Origin: a virus
Length of the DNA stretch: 40,910 bases
Virus record (IMG/VR): IMGVR_UViG_3300045988_035032
Location: 1-40,910 of that record
Reading direction: 5' to 3' (one strand)
Both the position numbers and the translations under genes were made by a program. A model generated the notes under the pieces. That model was not told the DNA's origin and did no database searches. It saw only the letters and a list, made by a program, of their open reading frames with translations. Below, piece by piece: positions 1,624 through 26,233 of the stretch (position 1 is the stretch's first letter; each line of letters starts with the position of its first letter).

Positions 1624-1725
1624 ATGCGAAAATTTAAGCATGGAGGACGTGGGGATACAGGGTTGGTACACGTCGCCGCCCTCCTCACGGACTCCATATT
1701 TTTTATGAAAAGGACGTGTTTTGAT

Positions 1726-12701: not shown

Positions 12702-12861
12702 AATCACCTGCACCCATAATCCCCAGGACTTTTTCAATGGACAGGAACCGGCGGAACTTTCCAAAACTTACATAACCGACAACTTAGAATTGGACACCAG
12801 CAGAGAAATCCATGATGGTTACCAGGTGATTGTATCGGAGGCTGAAAAGGATGAAGAATGA
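12685..12861 (+). CDS. Hypothetical 58-aa protein (not in ORF track)
   Basis: ATG 12685 overlaps the upstream 3' end, and the stop overlaps the next start. Confidence 0.4.
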   Translation: MKKKFRITCTHNPQDFFNGQEPAELSKTYITDNLELDTSREIHDGYQVIVSEAEKDEE

Positions 12862-13039
12862 AAAGCGGAGAATTAAGACCGACCACCTTCCGTGCCGCTA
12901 TGACTTTAAGGTTATGACCAATGGAAGGCCTATGACCCTGTACGACTTGACGATGGATGAGCTGACCTGTCTCATGGATGTTTATTTCAGAAACGGATAT
13001 GAGCAGATATATGCCAGAATCGCCTCAACATGGGAGTAA
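12851..13039 (+). CDS. Hypothetical protein
   Basis: GGAGGCTGAAAAGG precedes ATG 12851. Confidence 0.5.
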   Translation: MKNEKRRIKTDHLPCRYDFKVMTNGRPMTLYDLTMDELTCLMDVYFRNGYEQIYARIASTWE

Positions 13040-13042
13040 GCT

Positions 13043-13654
13043 ATGGACGAAAAAGCAGGGTGGATCAAACTCTGGAGAAAATTTGCGGATGACCCCTTAT
13101 GGGTTTCGGAACCATTTACCAAAGGACAAGCTTGGGTTGACCTGCTTCTTATGGCCCAAGGGACGGAGAATACAATTTTCAAAAATGGGAAATTTATGGA
13201 GTTCCAGCCTGGAACTGTCTATAAGAGCATCTTAGAATTGTCCAAGCGATGGAAATGGAGCCGGAACAAGGTTAGTAGATTTTTAAAATCCCTCGAAAAT
13301 GAAACAATGGTTGAAACAAAGAGTGATACAACGAATGGAACAACGATAACCATTGAAAATTGGGAGGTTTACCAGGGCAGAGGGCAACAAACGAAACAAC
13401 GCCGTGAACGAAAATCGGACAACTCACGGACAACGGACGGACATAATAAAGAAGGAATAAGAAGGAATAGAAGAAAAGAAGATAGCTGCGGCGTCGCCGC
13501 GCCGTCTGAGGACGGCGGGCTCCCCGCCGAGGGGACGGGTGATGACTCCATTGTGATTGATGGGAGGTTGTACAGATTCCCATCCAGGTGGAGACGAGAC
13601 GCAGAAGCTATGGGGAAGGACCTTGGCCTGTTCGTAAAGGGGATGTACCAATGA
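13043..13654 (+). CDS. Replisome organiser / DnaD-like replication initiation protein
   Basis: N-terminal WIKLWRKF...WVDLLLMA winged-helix pattern and basic middle region. The gene lies immediately upstream of the primase-helicase. Confidence 0.7.
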   Translation: MDEKAGWIKLWRKFADDPLWVSEPFTKGQAWVDLLLMAQGTENTIFKNGKFMEFQPGTVYKSILELSKRWKWSRNKVSRFLKSLENETMVETKSDTTNGTTITIENWEVYQGRGQQTKQRRERKSDNSRTTDGHNKEGIRRNRRKEDSCGVAAPSEDGGLPAEGTGDDSIVIDGRLYRFPSRWRRDAEAMGKDLGLFVKGMYQ

Positions 13655-15426: not shown

Positions 15427-15755
15427 CAGAACTTCCTTTTGAAAGAGCGGCCATGCGTGGAGAGCCGATGTCGGATAGTTTGGATTTTATTGATGCAGTA
15501 ATGTATCAGGGTTTGGCAGCATTATATTTTAGATTTTTTCAAAAGGCGATTACGCAGGAACAAGGACAAATTGAAAAAAAGCACCTGATGAGAAAGTACA
15601 CGGTAGAACGGAATTTGAAATCGTATGAAGATATTATGTACCGTTGGAACAGCGATTTAAGAAAAGCAGTTGAAGCCGCCCAAAACGCCTATCTGAAAAA
15701 CCGCACGTTGGAAAACGCCGACAGGTTGAGCGCGGCGCTGGATGGGAGGCTGTGA
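15423..15755 (+). CDS. Hypothetical protein
   Basis: ATGA coupling to the helicase stop. Helical. Confidence 0.6.
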   Translation: MTELPFERAAMRGEPMSDSLDFIDAVMYQGLAALYFRFFQKAITQEQGQIEKKHLMRKYTVERNLKSYEDIMYRWNSDLRKAVEAAQNAYLKNRTLENADRLSAALDGRL

Positions 15756-15758
15756 TGA

Positions 15759-15836
15759 ATGAATACATACATTACGAACCATATGGACGATATTAAGCGT
15801 GCCCTGCTGGGCGACAAAGAGGCGGCGAAGCTATGA
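15759..15836 (+). pseudogene. 25-codon relic of a lar-like 5' end
   Basis: Encodes MNTYITNHMDDIKRALLGDKEAAKL. Residues 9-25 align with the Lar N-terminus MDDIKLALLGNHEAARRL at 16425 (11 of 17 identical). The stop overlaps the next ATG. Confidence 0.4.
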
Positions 15837-17951: not shown

Positions 17952-18475
17952 TGAAGTTGGACAAAGTTGCAAACTCTAAAAATGACGAGTTCTATACTCC
18001 AGCTTACGCAATATCCCCCATTCTGAAATATATTCCAAGCAGGAGTGTGGTGTGGTGTCCGTTCGACCAAGAAAAATCCCTTTTTGTGTCAGAACTACGA
18101 AAACACGGTTGTGAGGTAATTCATACGCACATAGCAGACGGACAAGATTTCTTTGATACAGACATTCCAAAGTGCGATTACATCATAAGCAACCCGCCTT
18201 ACTCTGTAAAGGGGAAAGTGTTCCAGAGGCTGTTCCAGATCGGCAAGTCATTTGCCATGCTGGTTGGCGTGGTGGGTCTCTTTGAGAGCCAAGAGCGTTT
18301 TGAAATGTTTCGCGACAACTCTTTTGAAATTATGTACTTAAATCGCCGTGTGGCATATTTCAAGGACCATACTGAACAAAATCCATCACTTCACCCGCCG
18401 TTTAGTAGTGTGTATGTGTGCCACGGTATATTACCCGAAAAGATTATATTCGAAGAAATTCAAAAATGTGGATAA
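17951..18475 (+). CDS. N6-adenine DNA methyltransferase (small, NPPY type)
   Basis: EFYTP and ISNPPYS motifs. The gene is visibly AT-richer than its neighbours. Confidence 0.8.
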   Translation: MKLDKVANSKNDEFYTPAYAISPILKYIPSRSVVWCPFDQEKSLFVSELRKHGCEVIHTHIADGQDFFDTDIPKCDYIISNPPYSVKGKVFQRLFQIGKSFAMLVGVVGLFESQERFEMFRDNSFEIMYLNRRVAYFKDHTEQNPSLHPPFSSVYVCHGILPEKIIFEEIQKCG

Positions 18476-18489
18476 AGGGGCAATAGATA

Positions 18490-18651
18490 ATGGCTGATAT
18501 TTGTGATGCTTGCGCTTTTGAAGATGCCTGTCCGAGTGCGCATTTTAACAAAACGGAATCAAGTATCTGCGCATTTTATAAAAGTCTGCGAAAGGACAAG
18601 CTAGATGGGGCTTATTGGAGGGAGGCGCTGAAAGATGGCAAGGGCGATTGA
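18490..18651 (+). CDS. Hypothetical 53-aa Cys-rich protein (not in ORF track)
   Basis: ATG 18490. CDACAFEDACP. Confidence 0.4.
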   Translation: MADICDACAFEDACPSAHFNKTESSICAFYKSLRKDKLDGAYWREALKDGKGD

Positions 18652-19030
18652 TGCGGACGCACTGCAAGAGCTGTGCGACAGGAGAATTCAGGACACATGG
18701 AATAGCAGGACTGCTCCTGTATCTTGGGCACACGCATACGCAGATTTTAAAGATGATATTGATAGTATGCCAACGCTCACCCCGCCGAACGAGCCGCTGA
18801 CGCTGGATAGCAGACTAACTCCCAAAATGGTGACCTGTCCGAAAGGGTGGCGAGGAATACGGGACACACGCTTTTATTGCCCCAGCTGTAAGAAAGCTGT
18901 GAAAAAGGGCGAGGAGTATTGCCATAAATGCGGTCAGGCTCTTGTATTCCCTGTCCAGCGATATGACAAGGAGAACAACAGAATTTGGCTGGATTTTTCT
19001 GACCGCCGCCCGCCGGAGGGAGAAGCATGA
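18635..19030 (+). CDS. Zinc-ribbon hypothetical protein
   Basis: CPSC...CHKCG. Ends with the RRPPEGEA junction motif. Confidence 0.55.
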   Translation: MARAIDADALQELCDRRIQDTWNSRTAPVSWAHAYADFKDDIDSMPTLTPPNEPLTLDSRLTPKMVTCPKGWRGIRDTRFYCPSCKKAVKKGEEYCHKCGQALVFPVQRYDKENNRIWLDFSDRRPPEGEA

Positions 19031-20211: not shown

Positions 20212-20344
20212 TATTATGATGCTCATAGCCGCTGTTGAGTGGATAGTCTTGGGTATTCTTACCTTTTGGAAGCTTAGGGGATGGAACAAAAAAATAGATG
20301 AACTGTACGAGGATATGAAGAAACAGTGGGAGGCGGAGGAATGA
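20204..20344 (+). CDS. Possible 46-aa membrane peptide (not in ORF track)
   Basis: AGGAGGGAG RBS. One hydrophobic helix. ATGA-coupled to the next ORF. Confidence 0.4.
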   Translation: MADIMMLIAAVEWIVLGILTFWKLRGWNKKIDELYEDMKKQWEAEE

Positions 20345-20628
20345 AAGAGTACATCGAGAGGGCGGTCGCGCTGGATGTGGTCAAGCGAACCAGCGGGGAT
20401 TATGTTGCTGCGTGGTCAGAGATTGTACACCTCCCCGCCGCCGACGTTGCGGAGGTCATGCACGGGAGATGGGTTTTTGATCATATGACGGGAGAATGGT
20501 CTTATTACTCTCATTGTTCTGAGTGCAATTATCAGGAATTTTTTGCAAATGAGGATGTGGAGAAACGGCACAAATATTGTCTTAACTGCGGCGCTCGCAT
20601 GGGCAAGGAGGCCAACCATGGAAACTGA
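20341..20628 (+). CDS. Zinc-ribbon hypothetical protein
   Basis: GGAGGCGGAGGA RBS. CSEC...CLNCG. Confidence 0.55.
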   Translation: MKEYIERAVALDVVKRTSGDYVAAWSEIVHLPAADVAEVMHGRWVFDHMTGEWSYYSHCSECNYQEFFANEDVEKRHKYCLNCGARMGKEANHGN

Positions 20629-22044: not shown

Positions 22045-22246
22045 ACTGCTCCTTTTCCTGGGCATAATCCTGTCCATCGTCAAAGCAAACGGATGGTTTA
22101 TAGTCCCGATGCCTGTTTTGGTTTTCTGCTGGGTGATGAGTTTTATTTGTTGGCTGATTTATTCGTACGCTCTTGGTGTGGGCGAAGGAGCTGCAAAAGA
22201 GATGAAAAAGAAAATTCGTGACGGGGAGGGCGGACAGCATGAGTGA
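22037..22246 (+). CDS. Small membrane protein (two hydrophobic helices)
   Basis: Overlaps the YopX stop. LLLFLGIILSIV and VLVFCWVMSFICWLIY. Confidence 0.55.
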   Translation: MIKLLLFLGIILSIVKANGWFIVPMPVLVFCWVMSFICWLIYSYALGVGEGAAKEMKKKIRDGEGGQHE

Positions 22247-22460
22247 GATTGAGCAATGCCTTAACTGCACACTCCTGGACTGTGTTAACTGCCTTGAGGG
22301 AGCCAGGACGAACCATCGAAAGTACAGCAAGAAATACAAGCGGGAGATCGTAGAGCGGAGCAGGAACGGAGAGAGCGTCTATTCCATCGCAAACGATACG
22401 GGGATAGACTCCTCCACTATCCGGTATTGGATCAAGCAGGAGGGGAAATGGAAAAACTAA
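22239..22460 (+). CDS. HTH DNA-binding protein (transposase/terS-type HTH), putative late regulator
   Basis: GGGGAGGG RBS. N-terminal CxxC..CxxC, then SVYSIANDTGIDSSTIRYWIKQ. Confidence 0.6.
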   Translation: MSEIEQCLNCTLLDCVNCLEGARTNHRKYSKKYKREIVERSRNGESVYSIANDTGIDSSTIRYWIKQEGKWKN

Positions 22461-22654
22461 GTGTAGAATTTGCGGCCAGAATGTGCCCCAAATGTGGGGC
22501 TGATAGCTTGGTCTATGACAGCAGAGAATTTCGAGATGGGAGCATTATCCGCAGAAGGAAATGTCAAGTATGTGGAACCAAATTTGAAACAATAGAGCAT
22601 TTTTCAAAATATATCAAAAAACGTGAGGAAAAATTTTTCAAACACAAGATGTAG
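22448..22654 (+). CDS. NrdR-like zinc-ribbon protein without ATP-cone
   Basis: MCPKCGADSLVYDSRE...IRRRKCQVCGTKFETIEH parallels the NrdR N-terminal zinc ribbon. GGAGGGG RBS. Confidence 0.65.
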   Translation: MEKLSVEFAARMCPKCGADSLVYDSREFRDGSIIRRRKCQVCGTKFETIEHFSKYIKKREEKFFKHKM

Positions 22655-22690
22655 AGTACAAAAGTCAAAAAAATATGATTTAATAATTGT

Positions 22691-22735
22691 GGGAGCGTAT
22701 GCCCCTGCGCTCCCGCTTCGCTTATTCTATTTTCT
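22691..22735 (+). terminator. Possible terminator of the early/middle operon
   Basis: GGGAGCG-N10-CGCTCCC followed by a T-rich tract (cttattctattttct). Confidence 0.45.
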
Positions 22736-23240
22736 CCTCAACCCCGGCGCTTGCCGGGGTACATACGCCGCACGAGCGCGTCAGCCCACACATCCGGGCC
22801 GGAGGGTCGCGCCCTCCATGCGGCAACATCGCCCTTTACGGGCATTAGACAATGTGCTCCAAAGGCCAAGGAGCTGACTGTGAAAAGACACTATACTGGC
22901 GAATCGGGGTCGCGTATCTTGCCAGTGAAATCACCAGCGGCCTGCCAGTAAGCCATAGCTGGCCGACTCCGGGTAGAATGGCAGCCTTTGAGAGTCAAAA
23001 CCGCGCTATCCCGCTGAAAACTGCCGTGTTTGCCTGTGCACGGGCCTCCCAATACGGCGTGACAATCTAAGCGGGAAAGCGCACATATGTCGCTCCTCGC
23101 CTCGTGAGGCGGGCGGTGGCACCAGGACGCAAGTCCTTACAGAGCAGGCCTCCGGAAAGCCTGACCAAACCCGGAGCATACCCCGGAAGGGGTATATATG
23201 CCGTGCCTCGTTGCGAGAGACGGGGGCGGGACAGAAAGGT
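22736..23240 (+). ncRNA. Candidate large structured RNA or structured late-operon leader
   Basis: No plausible CDS or RBS. GC is visibly higher than the flanks. At least 11 local or nested helices are present, including GNRA-capped hairpins (AGGAC-GCAA-GTCCT and ATACCCC-GGAA-GGGGTAT). Confidence 0.5.
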
Positions 23241-23252
23241 GGTGAGCCCATT

Positions 23253-23624
23253 GTGGCGAAAGGCAAATATCAACGGTGGCTGGAGCCGGATGGGCTTTTG
23301 CTGCTTGAAGGATGGGCACGAGACGGGCTGACAGATGAACAGATCGCCCACAATATGGGGATTACTGCAAAAACATTATATGAGTGGAAAAATGCTCATA
23401 GTGAGATTTGTGAGGCCCTAAAAAAAGGAAAAGAAGTCGTAGACTACCAGGTTGAAAACGCTCTGCTGGCATCTGCATTGGATGGTAACACCACAGCACA
23501 GATTTTTTGGCTGAAGAACCGAAGACCGGACAGGTGGAGGGACAAGCCCGAAATGCCGGGTGACTCTGATGGGCTGAAACGGGCGAAGGAACTGCTGGAG
23601 GGAATACCGAGTGCCATTGACTGA
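23253..23624 (+). CDS. terS: Terminase small subunit
   Basis: AAAGGTGGTGA RBS precedes GTG 23253. KGKYQRWLEPDGLLLLEGWARDGLTDEQIAHNMGI HTH pattern. The gene overlaps the terL start. Confidence 0.8.
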   Translation: MAKGKYQRWLEPDGLLLLEGWARDGLTDEQIAHNMGITAKTLYEWKNAHSEICEALKKGKEVVDYQVENALLASALDGNTTAQIFWLKNRRPDRWRDKPEMPGDSDGLKRAKELLEGIPSAID

Positions 23625-24811: not shown

Positions 24812-26233
24812 TTGCTTACATATCAGGATTTGCTTGCCTTGGGCGAAGACGAAAAGTCTCGCATGGAATTTATTTGGAGGGCGATCAACGAACACAAAGG
24901 CAGCAGGGCCTATCAGATGGCGGTGGATGCCGAACTGTACTTCAATGGCGAAAACCCGACCATTAACCGCTATGAAAAAATCATATACGACATGCAGGGC
25001 CGGGCGCACCGGGATATGTACACGGCCAACCACAAGATCGCAAGCAGCTTTTTTGGCTTTGACGTGCAGCAGGAGGTTTCATATCTGCTGGGAAACGGCG
25101 TAACATTTCACGGGACTGCCACAAAAGACAGGCTGGGAAAAAAGTTTGATCTGGAAATGGTGCGGGCCGGGAAGTATGCGCTTATCGCTGGTGTGTCCTT
25201 TGGCTTTTGGAACTTCGATCATCTGGAAGTGTTTAAGCTGCGGGAGTTTGTGCCGCTCTACGACGAGGAAAACGGCGCTTTGATGGCTGGCATCCGGTTC
25301 TGGCAGGTGGCGGATGATAAGCCCCTACGGGCTACGCTGTACGAGGTGGACGGTTACACGGACTACATCCAGCGCAGCGGCGAAGATATGACGGTTTTGA
25401 AGGATAAGCGCACTTATATTCTGCGCATGCGCACCTCTGCGGCAGACGGCACGGAAATTTACGATGGGCAGAATTATCCGACGTTCCCCATTGTGCCGTT
25501 GAAAAATGGCGAGGATGCGCTTTCGGAACTGACGGGAAAGCGGAACACCATAGACGCGCTGGACTTGTGCACCTCCAACATGGTCAACAATGTGGATGAA
25601 GGCAACCTGATCTATTGGGTGCTCACCAACTGCGGCGGCATGGATGATATGGATGACGCAAAATTTCTGGATGCCGTGCGGACTACGCATGTTGTCCACG
25701 CCGGCGGAGAGGGCGACGAGGGTGCGAGCGCCGAGCCGCACACCATAGAGGCTCCGTTCAACGGCACTAGCGCCACGATCGACATGCTGAAGCGTAAGCT
25801 GTATGAGGATTTCCAGGCGTTTGACAGCTCGGCGGTGTCGGCGGGCAATCAGACGGCCACGGCCATTGCAGCCAGCTACACGCCGCTGGATTTGAAAGTG
25901 GATGACTTTGAAGCCAGCGTGACGGAGTTTATCCTTGGGATTTTGGAACTTGCTGGAATTGACGACGAGCCGAGCTACACCCGTAGTAAGATCATCAACA
26001 GATTGGAAGAAACGCAGACCATCCTAATGGGTGCGGATTACTACGATGACGAGTATATCACAAAGAAGCTGTTGACCATCAATGGCGACGCCGACCAGTT
26101 CGATGCCCTGATGGAGCGCAAAGCCGCGGAGGAGACAGAGCGGGTTGAGGAAGAACCAGAGTTCCCACCACAAGATGAAACCGAGGTGACGGAGAATGCC
26201 GAAACCGGATCAGGCGCACCAGTGGACGGATAA
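24812..26233 (+). CDS. Portal protein (SPP1 gp6-like)
   Basis: 473 aa, positioned after terL, with an acidic C-terminus. TTG start after GGAGGTGA. Confidence 0.9.
   Translation: MLTYQDLLALGEDEKSRMEFIWRAINEHKGSRAYQMAVDAELYFNGENPTINRYEKIIYDMQGRAHRDMYTANHKIASSFFGFDVQQEVSYLLGNGVTFHGTATKDRLGKKFDLEMVRAGKYALIAGVSFGFWNFDHLEVFKLREFVPLYDEENGALMAGIRFWQVADDKPLRATLYEVDGYTDYIQRSGEDMTVLKDKRTYILRMRTSAADGTEIYDGQNYPTFPIVPLKNGEDALSELTGKRNTIDALDLCTSNMVNNVDEGNLIYWVLTNCGGMDDMDDAKFLDAVRTTHVVHAGGEGDEGASAEPHTIEAPFNGTSATIDMLKRKLYEDFQAFDSSAVSAGNQTATAIAASYTPLDLKVDDFEASVTEFILGILELAGIDDEPSYTRSKIINRLEETQTILMGADYYDDEYITKKLLTINGDADQFDALMERKAAEETERVEEEPEFPPQDETEVTENAETGSGAPVDG

What the first reader, a model, noticed from the sequence alone, without database searches (positions are those of the whole stretch)
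22655..23252. 0.6-kb ORF-free, GC-rich, hairpin-dense segment between putative late regulators and terS: candidate large structured RNA
This is the longest noncoding gap in an otherwise tightly packed genome.

- The ORFs listed here overlap on both strands, are Arg/Pro/Ala/Gly-rich, and have no RBS and no HNH or other motif. They look like high-GC artefacts.
- GC is visibly above the flanks; 22741-22800 is 44/60 G+C.
- Many helices are readable by eye:
  - 22741-22760 (ACCCCGGC-GCTT-GCCGGGGT)
  - 22767-22824 (GCCGCA...TGCGGC), enclosing 22801-22817 (GGAGGG-TCGCG-CCCTCC)
  - 22856-22874
  - 22895-22926 (ACTGGC...GCCAGT)
  - 22978-23027 (ATGGCAG...CTGCCGT)
  - 23096-23113
  - 23124-23137 (GCAA tetraloop)
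  - 23150-23176 (CTCCGG...CCGGAG)
  - 23178-23195 (GGAA tetraloop)
  - 23201-23223
- GCCAG/CTGGC elements recur six times, which allows alternative or pseudoknot pairings.
- The palindrome ACATATGT (23083-23090) sits in a loop.
- No sigma-A-like promoter is visible.

Size and prophage context are compatible with the ROOL/GOLLD class of large ornate phage-associated RNAs. Alternatively it could be a processive-antitermination or packaging-related leader of the late operon. I cannot assign it to a known family from memory.
Basis: partly seen in the sequence, partly recalled or inferred. Interest (0 to 1): 0.8.

Follow-up and report, generated by a model that had tools for sequence, protein, structure and literature searches.

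The report
Phage tRNA-island RNA array without tRNAs
The 0.55-kb gap in front of this phage's DNA-packaging genes encodes a chain of about a dozen small folded RNA modules rather than one giant RNA; in related gut-bacterial phages the same modules are interleaved with transfer-RNA genes, and none of them matches a described RNA family.

Summary
Positions 22655-23252 have no supported ORF, are GC-rich (58-61% against 50%), and fold better than shuffled controls (z = -4.05).

The conserved unit is 22688-23229, on the + strand. It lies between a small regulator gene and terS. It recurs in about 190 viral contigs and in Oscillospiraceae genomes, next to at least five unrelated terminase types.

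It matches no Rfam family, ROOL and GOLLD included. It is not one obligate fold. It is an ordered chain of independently recurring modules: M1, W2-W5, M3, Mid, M4, B1-B5.

Covariation supports M4 (85% paired against 32-51% when slid; 11 of 17 pairs compensatory), W3 and W5-M3.

In relatives the same slots hold real tRNA genes, always on the same strand (112 of 112). A tRNA-Met follows B3-B4 in 31 loci, exactly where the window has B5.

B1 is an invariant 40-nt unit, AUAY|G-13-bp helix-ACCA. This is the format of a minimal RNase P substrate.

Best reading: this is a tRNA-island-type RNA array that forms the leader of the late operon and is probably cut up by tRNA-processing enzymes. The processing, and what each module does, are inferred.

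Interest is moderate. These are new motif families within a known kind.

The parts
22674..22687 (+). Promoter-like -10 region (TATGAT 22674-22679, or AATAAT 22682-22687) just upstream of the point where homology begins.
   Evidence: In all 19 distinct upstream contexts of relatives, a -10-like hexamer lies exactly 6 nt before GTGGGAGCG: TGCGACAAT (extended -10), TAGAAT or TAAAAT. Type-specific inverted repeats lie at about -30 to -50. The generic scan found no sigma-70 site on the + strand. Promoter function is inferred.
22689..22714 (+). M1: 5'-terminal hairpin GGGAGCG-UAUGCCCCUG-CGCUCCC.
   Evidence: The exact 26-mer occurs in 38 viral contigs. Homology to the window starts sharply at 22688 in about 40 loci. 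It is nearly invariant, with 10 distinct versions. Castelnaud's version keeps pairing through G-U. It always lies upstream of the other modules on the same strand.
22715..22740 (+). Pyrimidine-rich linker (GCUUCGCUUAUUCUAUUUUCUCCUCA).
   Evidence: It is conserved as a C/U-rich tract in both major types. Together with M1 it gives a weak RsaE/RoxS-like hit in L028 (32 bits against a 79-bit cutoff, E = 0.11). Function unknown.
22741..22760 (+). W2 hairpin ACCCCGGC-GCUU-GCCGGGGU.
   Evidence: 30 hits and 10 distinct versions, with little variation. Chenonceau-type relatives have a different, longer hairpin here.
22767..22824 (+). W3: three-helix module preceded by the leader ACAUAC. Closing stem 22767-22772/22819-22824, inner hairpin 22784-22787/22796-22799, hairpin GGAGGG-UCGCG-CCCUCC 22801-22817.
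   Evidence: 30 distinct sequences. 96% of cells are paired, against 37-55% in slid registers. 4 pairs have changes on both sides. Covariation score 0.078 against 0.042 +/- 0.006, with 0 of 500 shuffles reaching it. Example: GCCGCA/UGCGGC <-> GCCGCC/GGCGGC.
22831..22843 (+). W4 small hairpin GCCC-UUUAC-GGGC.
   Evidence: Conserved in colinear relatives, with the variant GCCCC-UUG-CGGGC?. Support is weak.
22856..22892 (+). W5 hairpin (22856-22874), the invariant UGAC (22875-22878), and the M3 hairpin with an (A/G)AAAGA loop (22879-22892).
   Evidence: 19 distinct sequences. 90.1% paired, against 25-57% when slid. 5 of 9 pairs are changed on both sides. Score 0.309 against 0.171 +/- 0.023, 0 of 500. 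M3 stems are UGUG/CAC, CCCCG/CGGGG, UGCG/CGC or GCUG/CAGC. In relatives M3 follows tRNA-Arg or tRNA-Ile genes. Junction 22878 is the insertion point of a tRNA-Arg-like gene in L015, L031, L035 and L038.
22893..23002 (+). Mid module, including hairpin 22895-22926 (ACUGGC...GCCAGU).
   Evidence: Only 5 near-identical versions, so there is no covariation test. L009, L017, L020 and L044 have an unrelated alternative module here, and other loci have a tRNA.
23003..23082 (+). M4: two helices around an invariant asymmetric internal loop. P1 outer 23003-23007/23078-23082. P1 inner 23009-23015/23070-23076. Loop 5' GAAAACU 23016-23022. P2 23023-23029/23052-23058 with a variable-length tip. Loop 3' GUGACAAUCUA 23059-23069.
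   Evidence: The loop pattern is found in 101 viral stretches, giving 57 distinct versions in 103 loci. In the formal count on 42 sequences, 85.0% of cells are paired against 32-51% when slid. 11 of 17 pairs and 73 cells have changes on both sides. Score 0.275 against 0.128 +/- 0.011, 0 of 500. Pair 23023-23058 is G-U in 38 of 42 sequences, so the RNA is from the + strand. M4 is embedded in tRNA arrays in L065, L084, L085, L089 and L103, and lies next to tRNA-Thr, -Asp or -Ala.
23085..23124 (+). B1: leader AUAU (23085-23088), a 13-bp helix 23089-23101/23108-23120 with loop UCGUGA, then ACCA (23121-23124). It is a tRNA-acceptor-like minihelix.
   Evidence: 102 occurrences in 52 distinct contexts. 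The leader is AUAU or AUAC in 48 of 52, +1 is G in 51 of 52, and the discriminator is A in 50 of 52. There are 27 different 8-mers after CCA and 21 different 6-mers at -10 to -5. The helix has several G-U pairs and an invariant C.C mismatch. Nested tRNA genes of relatives end the same way...GGUUCC-ACCA. There is no covariation because the sequence is invariant.
23125..23136 (+). B2 hairpin GGAC-GCAA-GUCC.
   Evidence: Conserved in one subgroup. Other hairpins, or larger modules, replace it in L044, L027/L045, L032/L039 and others.
23145..23195 (+). B3, a pseudoknot-type element (CAGGC 23145-23149/GCCUG 23159-23163; CUCCGG 23150-23155/CCGGAG 23171-23176), plus the B4 hairpin AUACCCC-GGAA-GGGGUAU (23178-23195).
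   Evidence: The B3 loop pattern occurs in 96 viral stretches. Stem 2 shows C-G <-> G-C (CUCCGG/CCGGAG against CCGCGG/CCGCAG). B4 is swapped for AUACCGUC-UUUGA-GGGCGGUAU in L007 and AUACCCGG-UCUAU-CCCGGGUAU in L166. A tRNA-Met gene starts 44 or 46 nt after B3 in 31 of 99 occurrences. Stem 1 is invariant and so untested.
23196..23229 (+). B5: leader AUAU (23196-23199) and hairpin GCCGUGCCUCG-UUG-CGAGAGACGGGGGCGG (23200-23229). It is the last module before the terS ribosome-binding site.
   Evidence: 57 hits and 31 distinct versions. Homology to most relatives ends at 23229. It occupies the slot that holds tRNA-Met(ACCA) directly upstream of terS in L130, L133, L143, L160 and others. The pairing scheme is only partly consistent, so this is the least certain fold.
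23236..23624 (+). terS ribosome-binding site (AAAGGUGGUGA, 23236-23246) and the terS gene (GTG 23252 to 23624), followed by terL from 23611.
   Evidence: phrog_309 terminase small subunit, E = 1.2e-52. terL matches Terminase_6N. The portal is SPP1-type.
22427..22654 (+). Upstream Zn-ribbon protein gene, a candidate late regulator.
   Evidence: Pfam Zn_ribbon_NrdR, E = 6e-12. Ogr_Delta scores 25.0 bits against a 26.3-bit cutoff, E = 1.8e-5. Most relatives instead have a 70-85-aa XRE-type HTH gene in this position.

Best explanation
Positions 22688-23229 are the phage's 'tRNA island', in a version that has no canonical tRNA gene. It is an ordered array of about a dozen independently folding RNA modules, M1, W2-W5, M3, Mid, M4 and B1-B5. 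They are read on the + strand from a promoter immediately upstream of M1, as the first part of the late (packaging and structural) transcript.

In related Oscillospiraceae phages the same modules are interleaved with real tRNA genes at the same junctions.

Proposed mechanism (inferred):
- The primary transcript is cut by the host's tRNA-processing machinery. RNase P would cut at the conserved AUAY|G sites in front of W3 (22766|22767), B1 (23088|23089) and B5 (23199|23200).
- B1 is a minimal acceptor-type hairpin with an encoded ACCA end.
- Cutting would release discrete small RNAs. It would also leave the terS mRNA with a hairpin-protected 5' end (B5), in the slot where relatives carry tRNA-Met.

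Shown here: strand, conservation, modularity, covariation, tRNA co-location and the RNase-P-substrate format.

Inferred: transcription start, cleavage, and the function of each released module.
For: (1) Sharp unit edges. Homology starts at 22688 and ends at 23229-23244 in about 40 loci. The upstream flank is never conserved, and terS is shared by only about 11.

(2) Constant context with changing neighbours. Upstream is a small regulator (XRE-HTH or Zn-ribbon). Downstream are at least five unrelated terS/terL types, sometimes with an anti-repressor gene in between.

(3) RNA of the + strand.
- Covariation supports M4, W3 and W5-M3.
- Hairpin swaps occur in B4, B2 and M4-P2.
- G-U pairs are frequent. 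M4 pair 22/75 is G-U in 38 of 42 sequences.
- The + strand folds better (z = -4.05 against -2.86).

(4) tRNA-island identity.
- tRNA genes are nested at module junctions.
- All 112 tRNAs within 1 kb of modules are on the same strand.
- B3-B4 lies 44 or 46 nt upstream of tRNA-Met in 31 loci, and that tRNA is directly followed by the RBS and terS.
- M4 sits inside the arrays Thr-Tyr-Leu-Asn-Glu-M4-Met-Gly.
- The module order is fixed across 180 loci.

(5) Independent modules. Co-occurrence classes include M4 only (39 loci), B3 only (31), B1+B3 (30) and all four markers M1, M4, B1 and B3 (23). ORFs are inserted between modules.

(6) RNase P format.
- B1 is AUAY|G, a 13-bp helix, then ACCA, with its boundaries exactly at -4 and after CCA.
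- AT[AG][TC]G[CT]CG occurs 8 times on the + strand of the 40.9-kb window, and 3 of these are in this 542-nt element.
- Bacterial RNase P cleaves hairpin model substrates (acceptor stem, T stem-loop, 3' RCCA) 5' of a G, and reads the RCCA and leader positions -8 to -1 (PMC11143913).

(7) A promoter-like -10 hexamer lies 6 nt upstream of M1 in all relatives.
Against: - There are no transcript data, so the start site and every cleavage are unproven.
- The generic promoter scan found nothing on the + strand.
- The window's own -10 candidate is spaced differently from the relatives'.
- B1's loop (NNNUGA, 6 nt) is not a T-loop. B1, M1 and B3 stem 1 are invariant, so they have no covariation support. 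Such strict sequence conservation could equally reflect a protein-binding or DNA-level role.
- W3 and B5 lack a 3' CCA.
- The AUAY leader precedes only one of the genuine tRNAs examined, tRNA-Ile in L033.
- Rfam's tRNA model gives no sub-threshold hit to any tRNA-like module.
- A mere processing or spacer role does not explain the strictly conserved internal loop of M4 or the B3 pseudoknot.
- Many loci are short fetched stretches, so module absence is partly a sampling effect.
Confidence: 0.6

Rival explanations
1. The element is one large ornate RNA of the GOLLD/ROOL kind. On this view 22688-23229 is a single functional RNA of about 540 nt, with a conserved 5' hairpin, a variable middle that can host tRNAs, and a conserved 3' domain, possibly forming a higher-order assembly.
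For: - Size of about 540 nt, prophage location, tRNAs nested in the variable middle of relatives, and a well conserved 3' part (B1-B5).
- GOLLD is described with a conserved 3' region, a less conserved 5' region and tRNAs in its linker. Both GOLLD and ROOL lie near tRNA islands (PMC12286853; PMC5737381).
- The module order is fixed.
- The fold energy z-score is -4.05.
Against: - No ROOL or GOLLD hit at E <= 10 in the window, and none in 31 related loci.
- Modules occur alone or in subsets. M4 occurs alone between tRNAs in unrelated large contigs.
- ORFs of 70-100 aa are inserted between modules.
- The only long-range helix RNAalifold proposes competes with hairpin B4, which has compensatory support.
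- No terminator follows the 3' end. The RNA runs straight into the terS RBS.
Confidence: 0.12
2. The element is a cis-regulatory leader of the late operon. The structures would control terS and late-gene expression by processive antitermination, attenuation, a ligand- or protein-sensing switch (M4, B3), or masking of the terS RBS, rather than being processed RNAs.
For: - It lies directly between the regulator genes and terS, with a promoter-like element in front and the RBS 7 nt after B5.
- The upstream Zn-ribbon is near threshold for Ogr/Delta late activators.
- M1 is an invariant hairpin at the likely 5' end, followed by a C/U-rich tract with anti-SD-like CCUCC.
- M4 has a riboswitch-like architecture, two stems around an invariant internal loop.
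Against: - No intrinsic terminator was found in the region.
- The element is not always adjacent to terS. An anti-repressor gene and other ORFs can intervene.
- M4 and B3-B4 occur inside tRNA arrays far from any coding start.
- No alternative, mutually exclusive pairings were found.
- This reading is partly compatible with the best explanation.
Confidence: 0.17
3. The element is a DNA-level site. The conserved blocks, especially the invariant B1 and M1, would be packaging (cos/pac), terminase-binding or recombination sites, or boundary sequences that promote module exchange, and not RNA elements.
For: - It lies immediately upstream of terS, where cos/pac sites often lie (established phage biology).
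- B1 and M1 are conserved as sequence on both arms without covariation.
- Recombination breakpoints coincide with module edges.
Against: - The element accompanies at least five unrelated terS/terL types, whereas packaging sites are terminase-specific.
- The helices depend on G-U pairs, which are mismatches in DNA.
- Covariation is present in M4, W3 and W5-M3.
- The element is strictly co-oriented with 112 of 112 tRNA genes.
- The same modules occur in tRNA arrays away from terminase genes.
Confidence: 0.05
4. The region is a decayed or unrecognised protein-coding gene, for example an HNH endonuclease remnant.
For: - Several 53-94-aa ORFs overlap the gap.
- Castelnaud has an HNH gene between its array and terS.
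- PHANOTATE annotated 'hypothetical proteins' over the homologous DNA in both GenBank phages.
Against: - None of the six ORFs has a Pfam hit.
- The ORFs overlap on both strands.
- Relatives differ by indels that are not multiples of three and by whole-module swaps.
- Substitutions are compensatory in helices rather than synonymous.
Confidence: 0.01

Closest known systems
GOLLD RNA (Rfam; phage and prophage, about 800 nt)
   Same: It is encoded in phages and prophages next to or around tRNA genes, with tRNAs sometimes inside a variable linker. It has a conserved 3' part and a more variable 5' part, and its function is unknown (PMC12286853).
   Different: No covariance-model match. The element here is smaller. 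Its modules recur independently and can be separated by ORFs. It has no 3' terminator, because it runs into terS.
ROOL RNA (Rfam; about 580 nt)
   Same: Similar length, a prophage and tRNA-island context, and occurrence in gut or rumen Firmicutes (PMC5737381).
   Different: No covariance-model match. [quoted passage not shown] Here the helices are almost all local and the modules are separable.
Phage tRNA gene clusters with co-encoded small stable RNAs (for example the T4 tRNA region with species 1 and 2 RNAs; my own knowledge)
   Same: Non-tRNA structured RNAs are co-transcribed with phage tRNAs and released by RNase P and related enzymes, and their function is unknown.
   Different: The window's version has no canonical tRNA at all. 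The array sits at the head of the late operon. The sequences are unrelated.
Minimal hairpin (acceptor/T-stem-loop) substrates of bacterial RNase P
   Same: B1 has a 12-13-bp helix, G at +1, U or C at -1, an A/U leader, and a single-stranded 3' ACCA (RCCA). Model substrates of this format are cleaved correctly by bacterial RNase P (PMC11143913).
   Different: B1's 6-nt loop is not a T-loop. The helix carries a conserved C.C mismatch. Cleavage was not tested.
Theta (minimal HDV-like) ribozymes of gut phages
   Same: They are small structured RNAs placed directly next to tRNA genes, often tRNA-Met, in gut-phage tRNA arrays, with a role in tRNA end processing (PMC10879173).
   Different: B3 is a simple H-type pseudoknot without P3/L3, P1.1 or P4. 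M4 is a two-helix internal-loop motif. No HDV-like Rfam hit. B3-B4 lies upstream of the tRNA, not downstream.
int-alpA, RAGATH-21 and RAGATH-31 small phage RNA motifs (Rfam)
   Same: They are small conserved phage RNA motifs of unknown function. int-alpA directly follows B5 or B1 in relatives, RAGATH-21 precedes M4 in L073, and RAGATH-31 occurs elsewhere in this window.
   Different: None of them overlaps the window's element. They are neighbours, not homologues.
tRNA punctuation of polycistronic transcripts (mitochondria; my own knowledge)
   Same: tRNA or tRNA-like structures act as cleavage signals that separate functional RNAs and define mRNA ends.
   Different: It has not been shown in phages of this group. 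It is used here only as a mechanistic analogy.

Membership tests
ROOL RNA (RF03087) | Match to the family covariance model | tested here: not met
   cmscan of 22400-23500 with permissive filters at E <= 10 gave no ROOL hit. The whole window at gathering thresholds gave none. 31 related loci gave none.
ROOL RNA (RF03087) | A single complex fold with multistem junctions and pseudoknots | tested here: not met
   The consensus fold is a chain of local helices. The modules recur separately.
GOLLD RNA | Match to the family covariance model | tested here: not met
   No hit.
GOLLD RNA | Phage or prophage location next to tRNA genes, with tRNAs in a variable linker | tested here: met
   tRNAs are nested at module junctions in relatives, and 112 of 112 are co-oriented. 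This is a contextual feature and is not sufficient for membership.
GOLLD RNA | A universally conserved 3' domain that always occurs as one unit | tested here: not met
   B1 has 27 different downstream neighbours. B3-B4 occurs without B1 or B5. ORFs are inserted between B1 and B3.
Canonical tRNA | Cloverleaf detected by ARAGORN or the Rfam tRNA model | tested here: not met
   No tRNA in the window. No tRNA hit at E <= 10 in the region.
tRNA-like acceptor minihelix / minimal RNase P substrate (B1) | A continuous helix of about 12 bp with G at +1 and a single-stranded 3' RCCA | tested here: met
   A 13-bp helix 23089-23101/23108-23120 followed by ACCA 23121-23124. +1 is G in 51 of 52 contexts, and the discriminator is A in 50 of 52.
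tRNA-like acceptor minihelix / minimal RNase P substrate (B1) | A 7-nt T-loop (UUCRANY) | tested here: not met
   The loop is 6 nt: UCGUGA, GCAUGA or GCACGA.
tRNA-like acceptor minihelix / minimal RNase P substrate (B1) | Cleavage by RNase P between -1 and +1 | not testable with these tools
   This needs an enzyme assay or 5'-end mapping. The only indirect support is the conserved AUAY leader, found in 48 of 52 contexts.
Theta / HDV-like ribozyme | A nested double pseudoknot (P1, P1.1, P2, P3, P4) with a catalytic C, within +/-5 nt of a tRNA end | tested here: not met
   B3 has only two interleaved stems, with AAA and ACCAAAC as linkers. No HDV-like Rfam hit. The definition is from PMC10879173.
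Intrinsic terminator (M1 or B1) | A GC-rich hairpin followed by a U-tract | tested here: not met
   No terminator-like site in 22200-23600 on either strand.
cos/pac packaging site | Specific to one terminase family, acting as DNA | tested here: not met
   The element occurs with at least five unrelated terS/terL types. Its helices rely on G-U pairs and show covariation. Virion DNA ends were not testable.
Protein-coding gene (e.g. HNH) | A conserved reading frame or a profile match | tested here: not met
   No Pfam hit for six ORFs. Frame-breaking indels and module swaps occur in relatives.

The most novel reading that the evidence does not exclude
One or more of the modules may be a new class of functional RNA dedicated to phage tRNA islands.

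The best candidate is M4. It has two covarying helices around a strictly invariant asymmetric internal loop (GAAAACU / GUGACAAU(C)UA), occurs in about 100 gut-phage contigs, and is wedged directly between tRNA genes. It could be a new self-cleaving ribozyme or a specific protein- or ligand-binding element that processes or regulates tRNA arrays, as theta ribozymes do.

Alternatively, the invariant CCA-ended minihelix B1 could be released as a small RNA that mimics a tRNA acceptor end. It might then act as a decoy for enzymes or defence toxins that act on tRNA 3' ends.
Probability: 0.2. Interest if true: 0.85.

Novelty: new variant of a known kind. Interest (0 to 1): 0.58.

Why it matters
Phage tRNA islands are usually described as lists of tRNA genes, with occasional giant RNAs (GOLLD, ROOL) or theta ribozymes nearby. 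This locus suggests that in temperate Oscillospiraceae phages the island is also built from a reusable set of small structured RNA modules. These modules persist, in order and at the head of the late operon, even when every canonical tRNA is absent. That implies they have functions of their own.

The analysis provides several concrete, testable motif families:
- M4, with strong covariation and an invariant internal loop.
- B1, a natural minihelix-type candidate RNase P substrate with an encoded CCA.
- The B3-B4 element that precedes tRNA-Met.

It also gives a specific processing model for how the late mRNA 5' end is made.

On the practical side, it flags a block that gene callers annotate as 'hypothetical proteins' in published phage genomes.

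Tried and rejected
- **Rfam membership.** ROOL, GOLLD, OLE, raiA, group I/II introns, HDV-like, hammerhead, twister and tmRNA were all covered by the scans. There were no hits at E <= 10 in the region, and only chance-level hits to Hatchet, snoZ242 and Hairpin-meta2 in the flanking coding DNA.
- **Generic closing-stem + NCCA scan over whole loci.** It was uninformative, because the reverse-strand control gave more hits than the forward strand (747 against 516). I replaced it with module-specific counts.
- **Long-range helix between the pyrimidine linker and GGAAGGGGUAU.** RNAalifold proposed it. I rejected it because it competes with B4, which has compensatory swaps, and because the two partners do not co-vary.
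- **B3 as an HDV-like or theta ribozyme.** Rejected on architecture.
- **M1 as an intrinsic terminator.** Not supported by the scan.
- **W3 as a D-arm-less decoding tRNA.** Its inner loop never has the U33/purine-37 pattern (read from the variants).
- **Sub-threshold tRNA similarity of the tRNA-like modules T1, T2 and Y of relatives.** None at E <= 0.5.
- **Protein explanations.** Pfam and PHROGs found nothing for the gap ORFs or for the small ORFs inserted in relatives.
- **Resemblance of the M4 loop to hairpin-ribozyme loop B.** Noted from memory only and not pursued.
- **Not used.** The metagenome scan, the structure-prediction tools and the covariance-model builder. The viral collection already gave about 190 loci.
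Full report
**1. The observation**

The window is essentially a complete temperate-phage genome. It has an endolysin at 65-985, terS at 23252-23624, terL from 23611 and an SPP1-type portal at 24812-26233.

Between the stop of a 75-aa Zn-ribbon ORF (22654) and the terS start (GTG 23252) there is no supported gene. The six ORFs of 53-94 aa that overlap the gap lie on both strands and have no Pfam match.

GC is 57.9% in the gap and 60.7% in 22688-23229, against 49.7% for the window.

The + strand folds to -249.9 kcal/mol, z = -4.05, with 0 of 100 shuffles as good. The - strand gives z = -2.86.

- GCCAG/CTGGC occur four times, not six.
- The palindrome ACATATGT is not conserved.
- One proposed helix (22978-22984/23021-23027) is contradicted by comparative data.

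**2. Not a known family**

Rfam 15 at gathering thresholds finds only a RAGATH-31 RNA elsewhere in the window, at 1642-1695. A permissive scan of 22400-23500 at E <= 10 finds nothing in the gap: no ROOL, GOLLD, OLE, raiA, introns, ribozymes or tmRNA. ARAGORN finds no tRNA in the window.

**3. Relatives and edges**

BLASTN against GenBank phages found partial matches in Flavonifractor phages Chenonceau and Castelnaud. The matches are in the same orientation, between a small regulator gene and the terminase genes. PHANOTATE had annotated hypothetical proteins there. The upstream regulators are unrelated: Zn-ribbon in the window, XRE-HTH in the two phages.

Exact-pattern scans of IMG/VR with four conserved blocks brought in about 190 loci.

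A genome scan placed the element in five genome records, four of them Oscillospiraceae: Flavonifractor plautii ATCC 29863, Intestinimonas, Muriventricola aceti and an uncultured MAG. The fifth is a Gastranaerophilales bin, probably a mis-binned contig.

Homology to the window begins sharply at 22688 and ends at 23229-23244. The upstream flank is never conserved, and terS is shared by only about 11 loci. Breakpoints recur at fixed junctions.

Downstream there are at least five unrelated terS/terL types, sometimes preceded by an anti-repressor gene. A packaging site would be terminase-specific, so a cos/pac explanation is unlikely.

**4. Anatomy**

The element is a chain of modules in a fixed order:

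| Module | Position | Description |
|---|---|---|
| M1 | 22689-22714 | Hairpin |
| Linker | 22715-22740 | C/U-rich tract |
| W2 | 22741-22760 | Hairpin |
| W3 | 22767-22824 | Three-helix module |
| W4 | 22831-22843 | Small hairpin |
| W5-UGAC-M3 | 22856-22892 | Two hairpins joined by an invariant UGAC |
| Mid | 22893-23002 | Variable module |
| M4 | 23003-23082 | Two helices around an invariant internal loop |
| B1 | 23085-23124 | Minihelix with leader and ACCA |
| B2 | 23125-23136 | GCAA hairpin |
| B3-B4 | 23145-23195 | Pseudoknot-type element plus hairpin |
| B5 | 23196-23229 | Last hairpin; the terS RBS follows at 23236-23246 |

Formal pair counts support the helices:

| Alignment | Sequences | Cells paired | Paired when slid | Pairs changed on both sides | Covariation score (shuffles) |
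|---|---|---|---|---|---|
| M4 | 42 | 85.0% | 32-51% | 11 of 17 (73 cells) | 0.275 (0.128 +/- 0.011; 0/500) |
| W3 | 30 | 96% | 37-55% | 4 | 0.078 (0.042; 0/500) |
| W5-M3 | 19 | 90.1% | 25-57% | 5 of 9 | 0.309 (0.171; 0/500) |

An independent script on 57 distinct M4 versions from 103 loci gave the same picture.

Other helices show hairpin swaps of the kind expected for RNA:
- B4 is swapped in L007 and L166.
- B2 is replaced by other hairpins.
- The tip of M4's P2 ranges from 8 to 51 nt.
- B3 stem 2 switches C-G to G-C.

Many pairs are G-U. One M4 pair is G-U in 38 of 42 sequences. The RNA is therefore read from the + strand, the same sense as the late genes.

M1, B1 and B3 stem 1 are essentially invariant. 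Their folds rest on complementarity alone.

**5. The decisive context: these are tRNA-island parts**

In relatives, real tRNA genes are nested in the array, at the same junctions and on the same strand.
- A tRNA-Arg-like gene sits at junction 22878, tRNA-Ile after M1, and tRNA-Met after B4.
- Across 180 module-bearing loci, 71 have a tRNA within 600 nt.
- All 112 tRNAs within 1 kb of a module are co-oriented.
- B3 is followed 44 or 46 nt later by tRNA-Met in 31 of 99 occurrences.
- In those phages the order is M4-like, B3, B4, tRNA-Met(ACCA), about 35 nt, RBS, terS. The tRNA therefore occupies exactly the slot where the window has B5.
- M4 lies inside long arrays, Thr-Tyr-Leu-Asn-Glu-M4-Met-Gly. 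In L065 it begins at the last base of tRNA-Glu. It also directly precedes tRNA-Thr, -Asp or -Ala in other loci.
- 26 of 101 M4 copies have a tRNA within 300 nt.

Relatives also carry obvious tRNA derivatives:
- A tRNA without an anticodon arm but with a canonical D-loop, a GGUUCGAUUCC T-arm and UCCA (Chenonceau).
- A T-arm minihelix, GCCGUUGCAGCAGUUCGAGUCUGCUGAUGGC.
- An 80-nt module, GCCGAG...CUCGGC-UCCA.

Rfam's tRNA model does not score these, so 'tRNA-like' rests on features read directly from the sequence.

**6. One RNA or many?**

The modules recur in different subsets. Classes seen are M4 only (39 loci), B3 only (31), B1+B3 (30) and all four markers M1, M4, B1 and B3 (23). Part of this reflects truncated loci. 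However, M4 alone inside foreign tRNA arrays and B3-B4 alone before tRNA-Met are unambiguous.

ORFs of 70-100 aa are inserted between M4 and B1, or between B1 and B3, in several phages. L010 has the 3' block twice.

The consensus fold is local. The single long-range helix proposed competes with a hairpin that has compensatory support. No terminator follows B5.

This argues against one obligate large fold. The layout does still resemble the published description of GOLLD, which is phage-borne, lies near tRNA islands, has a conserved 3' region and a variable 5' region, and can carry tRNAs in its linker (PMC12286853; PMC5737381).

**7. How it probably works**

*Transcription (inferred).* In all 19 distinct upstream contexts of relatives, a -10-like hexamer lies exactly 6 nt before the first conserved base. 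It is TGCGACAAT (an extended -10), TAGAAT or TAAAAT. There is no good -35, and a type-specific inverted repeat lies at about -30 to -50. The window has TATGAT or AATAAT. This looks like an activator-dependent promoter whose transcript starts with M1. The upstream Zn-ribbon protein is near threshold for the Ogr/Delta late activators, at 25.0 bits against a 26.3-bit cutoff.

*Processing (inferred).* B1 is an exceptionally well delimited unit.
- It has 102 occurrences in 52 contexts.
- The leader is AUAU or AUAC in 48 of 52, +1 is G in 51 of 52, and the discriminator is A in 50 of 52, followed by CCA.
- There are 27 different sequences after the CCA and 21 different 6-mers upstream of position -4.
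- A 13-bp helix with G+1, U/C-1 and a single-stranded RCCA is the format of the hairpin model substrates that bacterial RNase P cleaves correctly. The enzyme reads the RCCA and leader positions -8 to -1 (PMC11143913).
- From memory, and untested here, bacterial RNase P prefers U at -1 and, in Bacillus, A at -4. AUAU|G would satisfy both.

The same AUAY|G leader precedes W3 and B5. The motif AT[AG][TC]G[CT]CG occurs 8 times on the + strand of the window, and 3 of these are in this 542-nt element.

Cleavage at these sites would give fragments of about 79, 322 and 111 nt. It would also leave a terS mRNA that begins with hairpin B5. This is a tRNA-punctuation-like scheme.

*What remains unexplained.* The model does not explain why M4's internal loop, M1's loop and the B3 pseudoknot are so strictly conserved. 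These modules very likely have specific partners or activities of their own.

**8. Verdict**

The specific attribution to the ROOL/GOLLD class fails the membership tests. The single-large-RNA picture is replaced by a modular tRNA-island array without tRNAs that forms the leader of the late operon.

The modules are not in Rfam 15. Pieces may be among the 10,006 unnamed candidate structured RNAs catalogued from IMG/VR (PMC10690425), which I could not check.

I rate this a new variant of a known kind, with moderate interest (0.58). There is a minority chance, about 0.2, that M4 or B1 represents a new functional RNA class.

Noticed in passing
window 1642-1695 (+): A full-length RAGATH-31 RNA (80.4 bits against a 71.8-bit gathering score, E = 2e-15). 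It lies in a 312-nt gap (1475-1786) between two minus-strand ORFs of unknown function, just downstream of the endolysin gene (65-985, Amidase_3).
   Followed up: partly
window 15427-15832, 20212-20542, 12702-12977: Three other intergenic gaps of 406, 331 and 276 nt, found by a crude ORF map. No Rfam family matches them at gathering thresholds. They were not examined for repeats, an origin or structure. Short tandem repeats lie nearby at 13416-13481.
   Followed up: no
window 22427-22654 (+): The gene just upstream of the array encodes a 75-aa Zn-ribbon protein (NrdR-type ribbon, E = 6e-12). It scores just below threshold for Ogr/Delta, the P2/P4 late-gene activators. Most relatives have an unrelated 70-85-aa XRE-HTH gene in this slot.
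   Followed up: partly
relatives, about 25-50 nt upstream of M1 (e.g. L003, L004, L030, L038, L115, L122): Each phage type has its own perfect inverted repeat (e.g. ATTCCTCC-TTTT-GGAGGAAT, TTGTCC-TTTTTT-GGACA, CTCCCAC-AAAA-GTGGGAG), preceded by an A/T-rich AAAATTTTT motif. These could be operators for the type-specific regulator, or hairpins at the end of the early operon.
   Followed up: no
L001 3444-3513, L047 4938-5007, L048 4518-4585, L156 2399-2466(-): An int-alpA RNA motif (Rfam RF02996) lies directly downstream of the array (after B5 or B1) in several relatives, in front of an anti-repressor (Ant/BRO) gene. The window lacks it.
   Followed up: partly
L073 4681-4753: A RAGATH-21 RNA sits 48 nt upstream of an M4 copy that is itself followed by a tRNA-Thr. 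This is another link between the RAGATH motifs and these tRNA-island modules.
   Followed up: no
L028 5787-5888(-), which corresponds to M1 plus the linker (window 22689-22740): A weak RsaE/RoxS-like match (32 bits against a 79-bit cutoff, E = 0.11), driven by C-rich motifs (the CCCC loop and UCCCAUCCCCUUU). It suggests M1 and the linker could act as an anti-Shine-Dalgarno element. It may be chance.
   Followed up: no
L008, L011, L012, L016, L048 (between M4 and the Y/B1 modules); L034, L048, L050 (between B1 and B3): Small ORFs are inserted inside the array in some phages: a 70-aa Cys-rich protein (MGKAKRKPRPSMPDWYWWGQDGCWFCKNKNNCNQCKANRSASKQF...) and an 86-100-aa protein (MGDPFELLR...). Neither has a PHROG or Pfam match.
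   Followed up: partly
L031 2176-2254, L038, L015 1445-1520, L035: The nested 'tRNA-Arg(CCG)' is atypical. It is 76-79 nt with an unusually long D-region, and two copies encode ACCA. It is always preceded by a paralogue of the M3 hairpin (CCCCG-GAAAGA-CGGGG).
   Followed up: no
L010 (oriented) 178-400 and 1446-1668: The 3' block (Y-B1-B3-B4-B5) is duplicated, with an anti-repressor gene and a terS fragment between the copies. This indicates recombination between arrays.
   Followed up: no
L098, L121, L153, L156, L028, L032, L039 (downstream of M4 or B1): A further large module, closed by UUGAGC...GCUCAA and rich in AGUAG(A/C), GGAAUAG and GAAGAAC motifs, sits between B1 and B3 in some phages. 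Rfam does not match it.
   Followed up: no
ON453904.1 (Chenonceau) 18215-18698; ON453903.1 (Castelnaud) 22244-22744: In the published genomes the homologous DNA is annotated as three overlapping or adjacent 'hypothetical protein' CDSs from PHANOTATE. These are probably false gene calls over structured RNA.
   Followed up: partly
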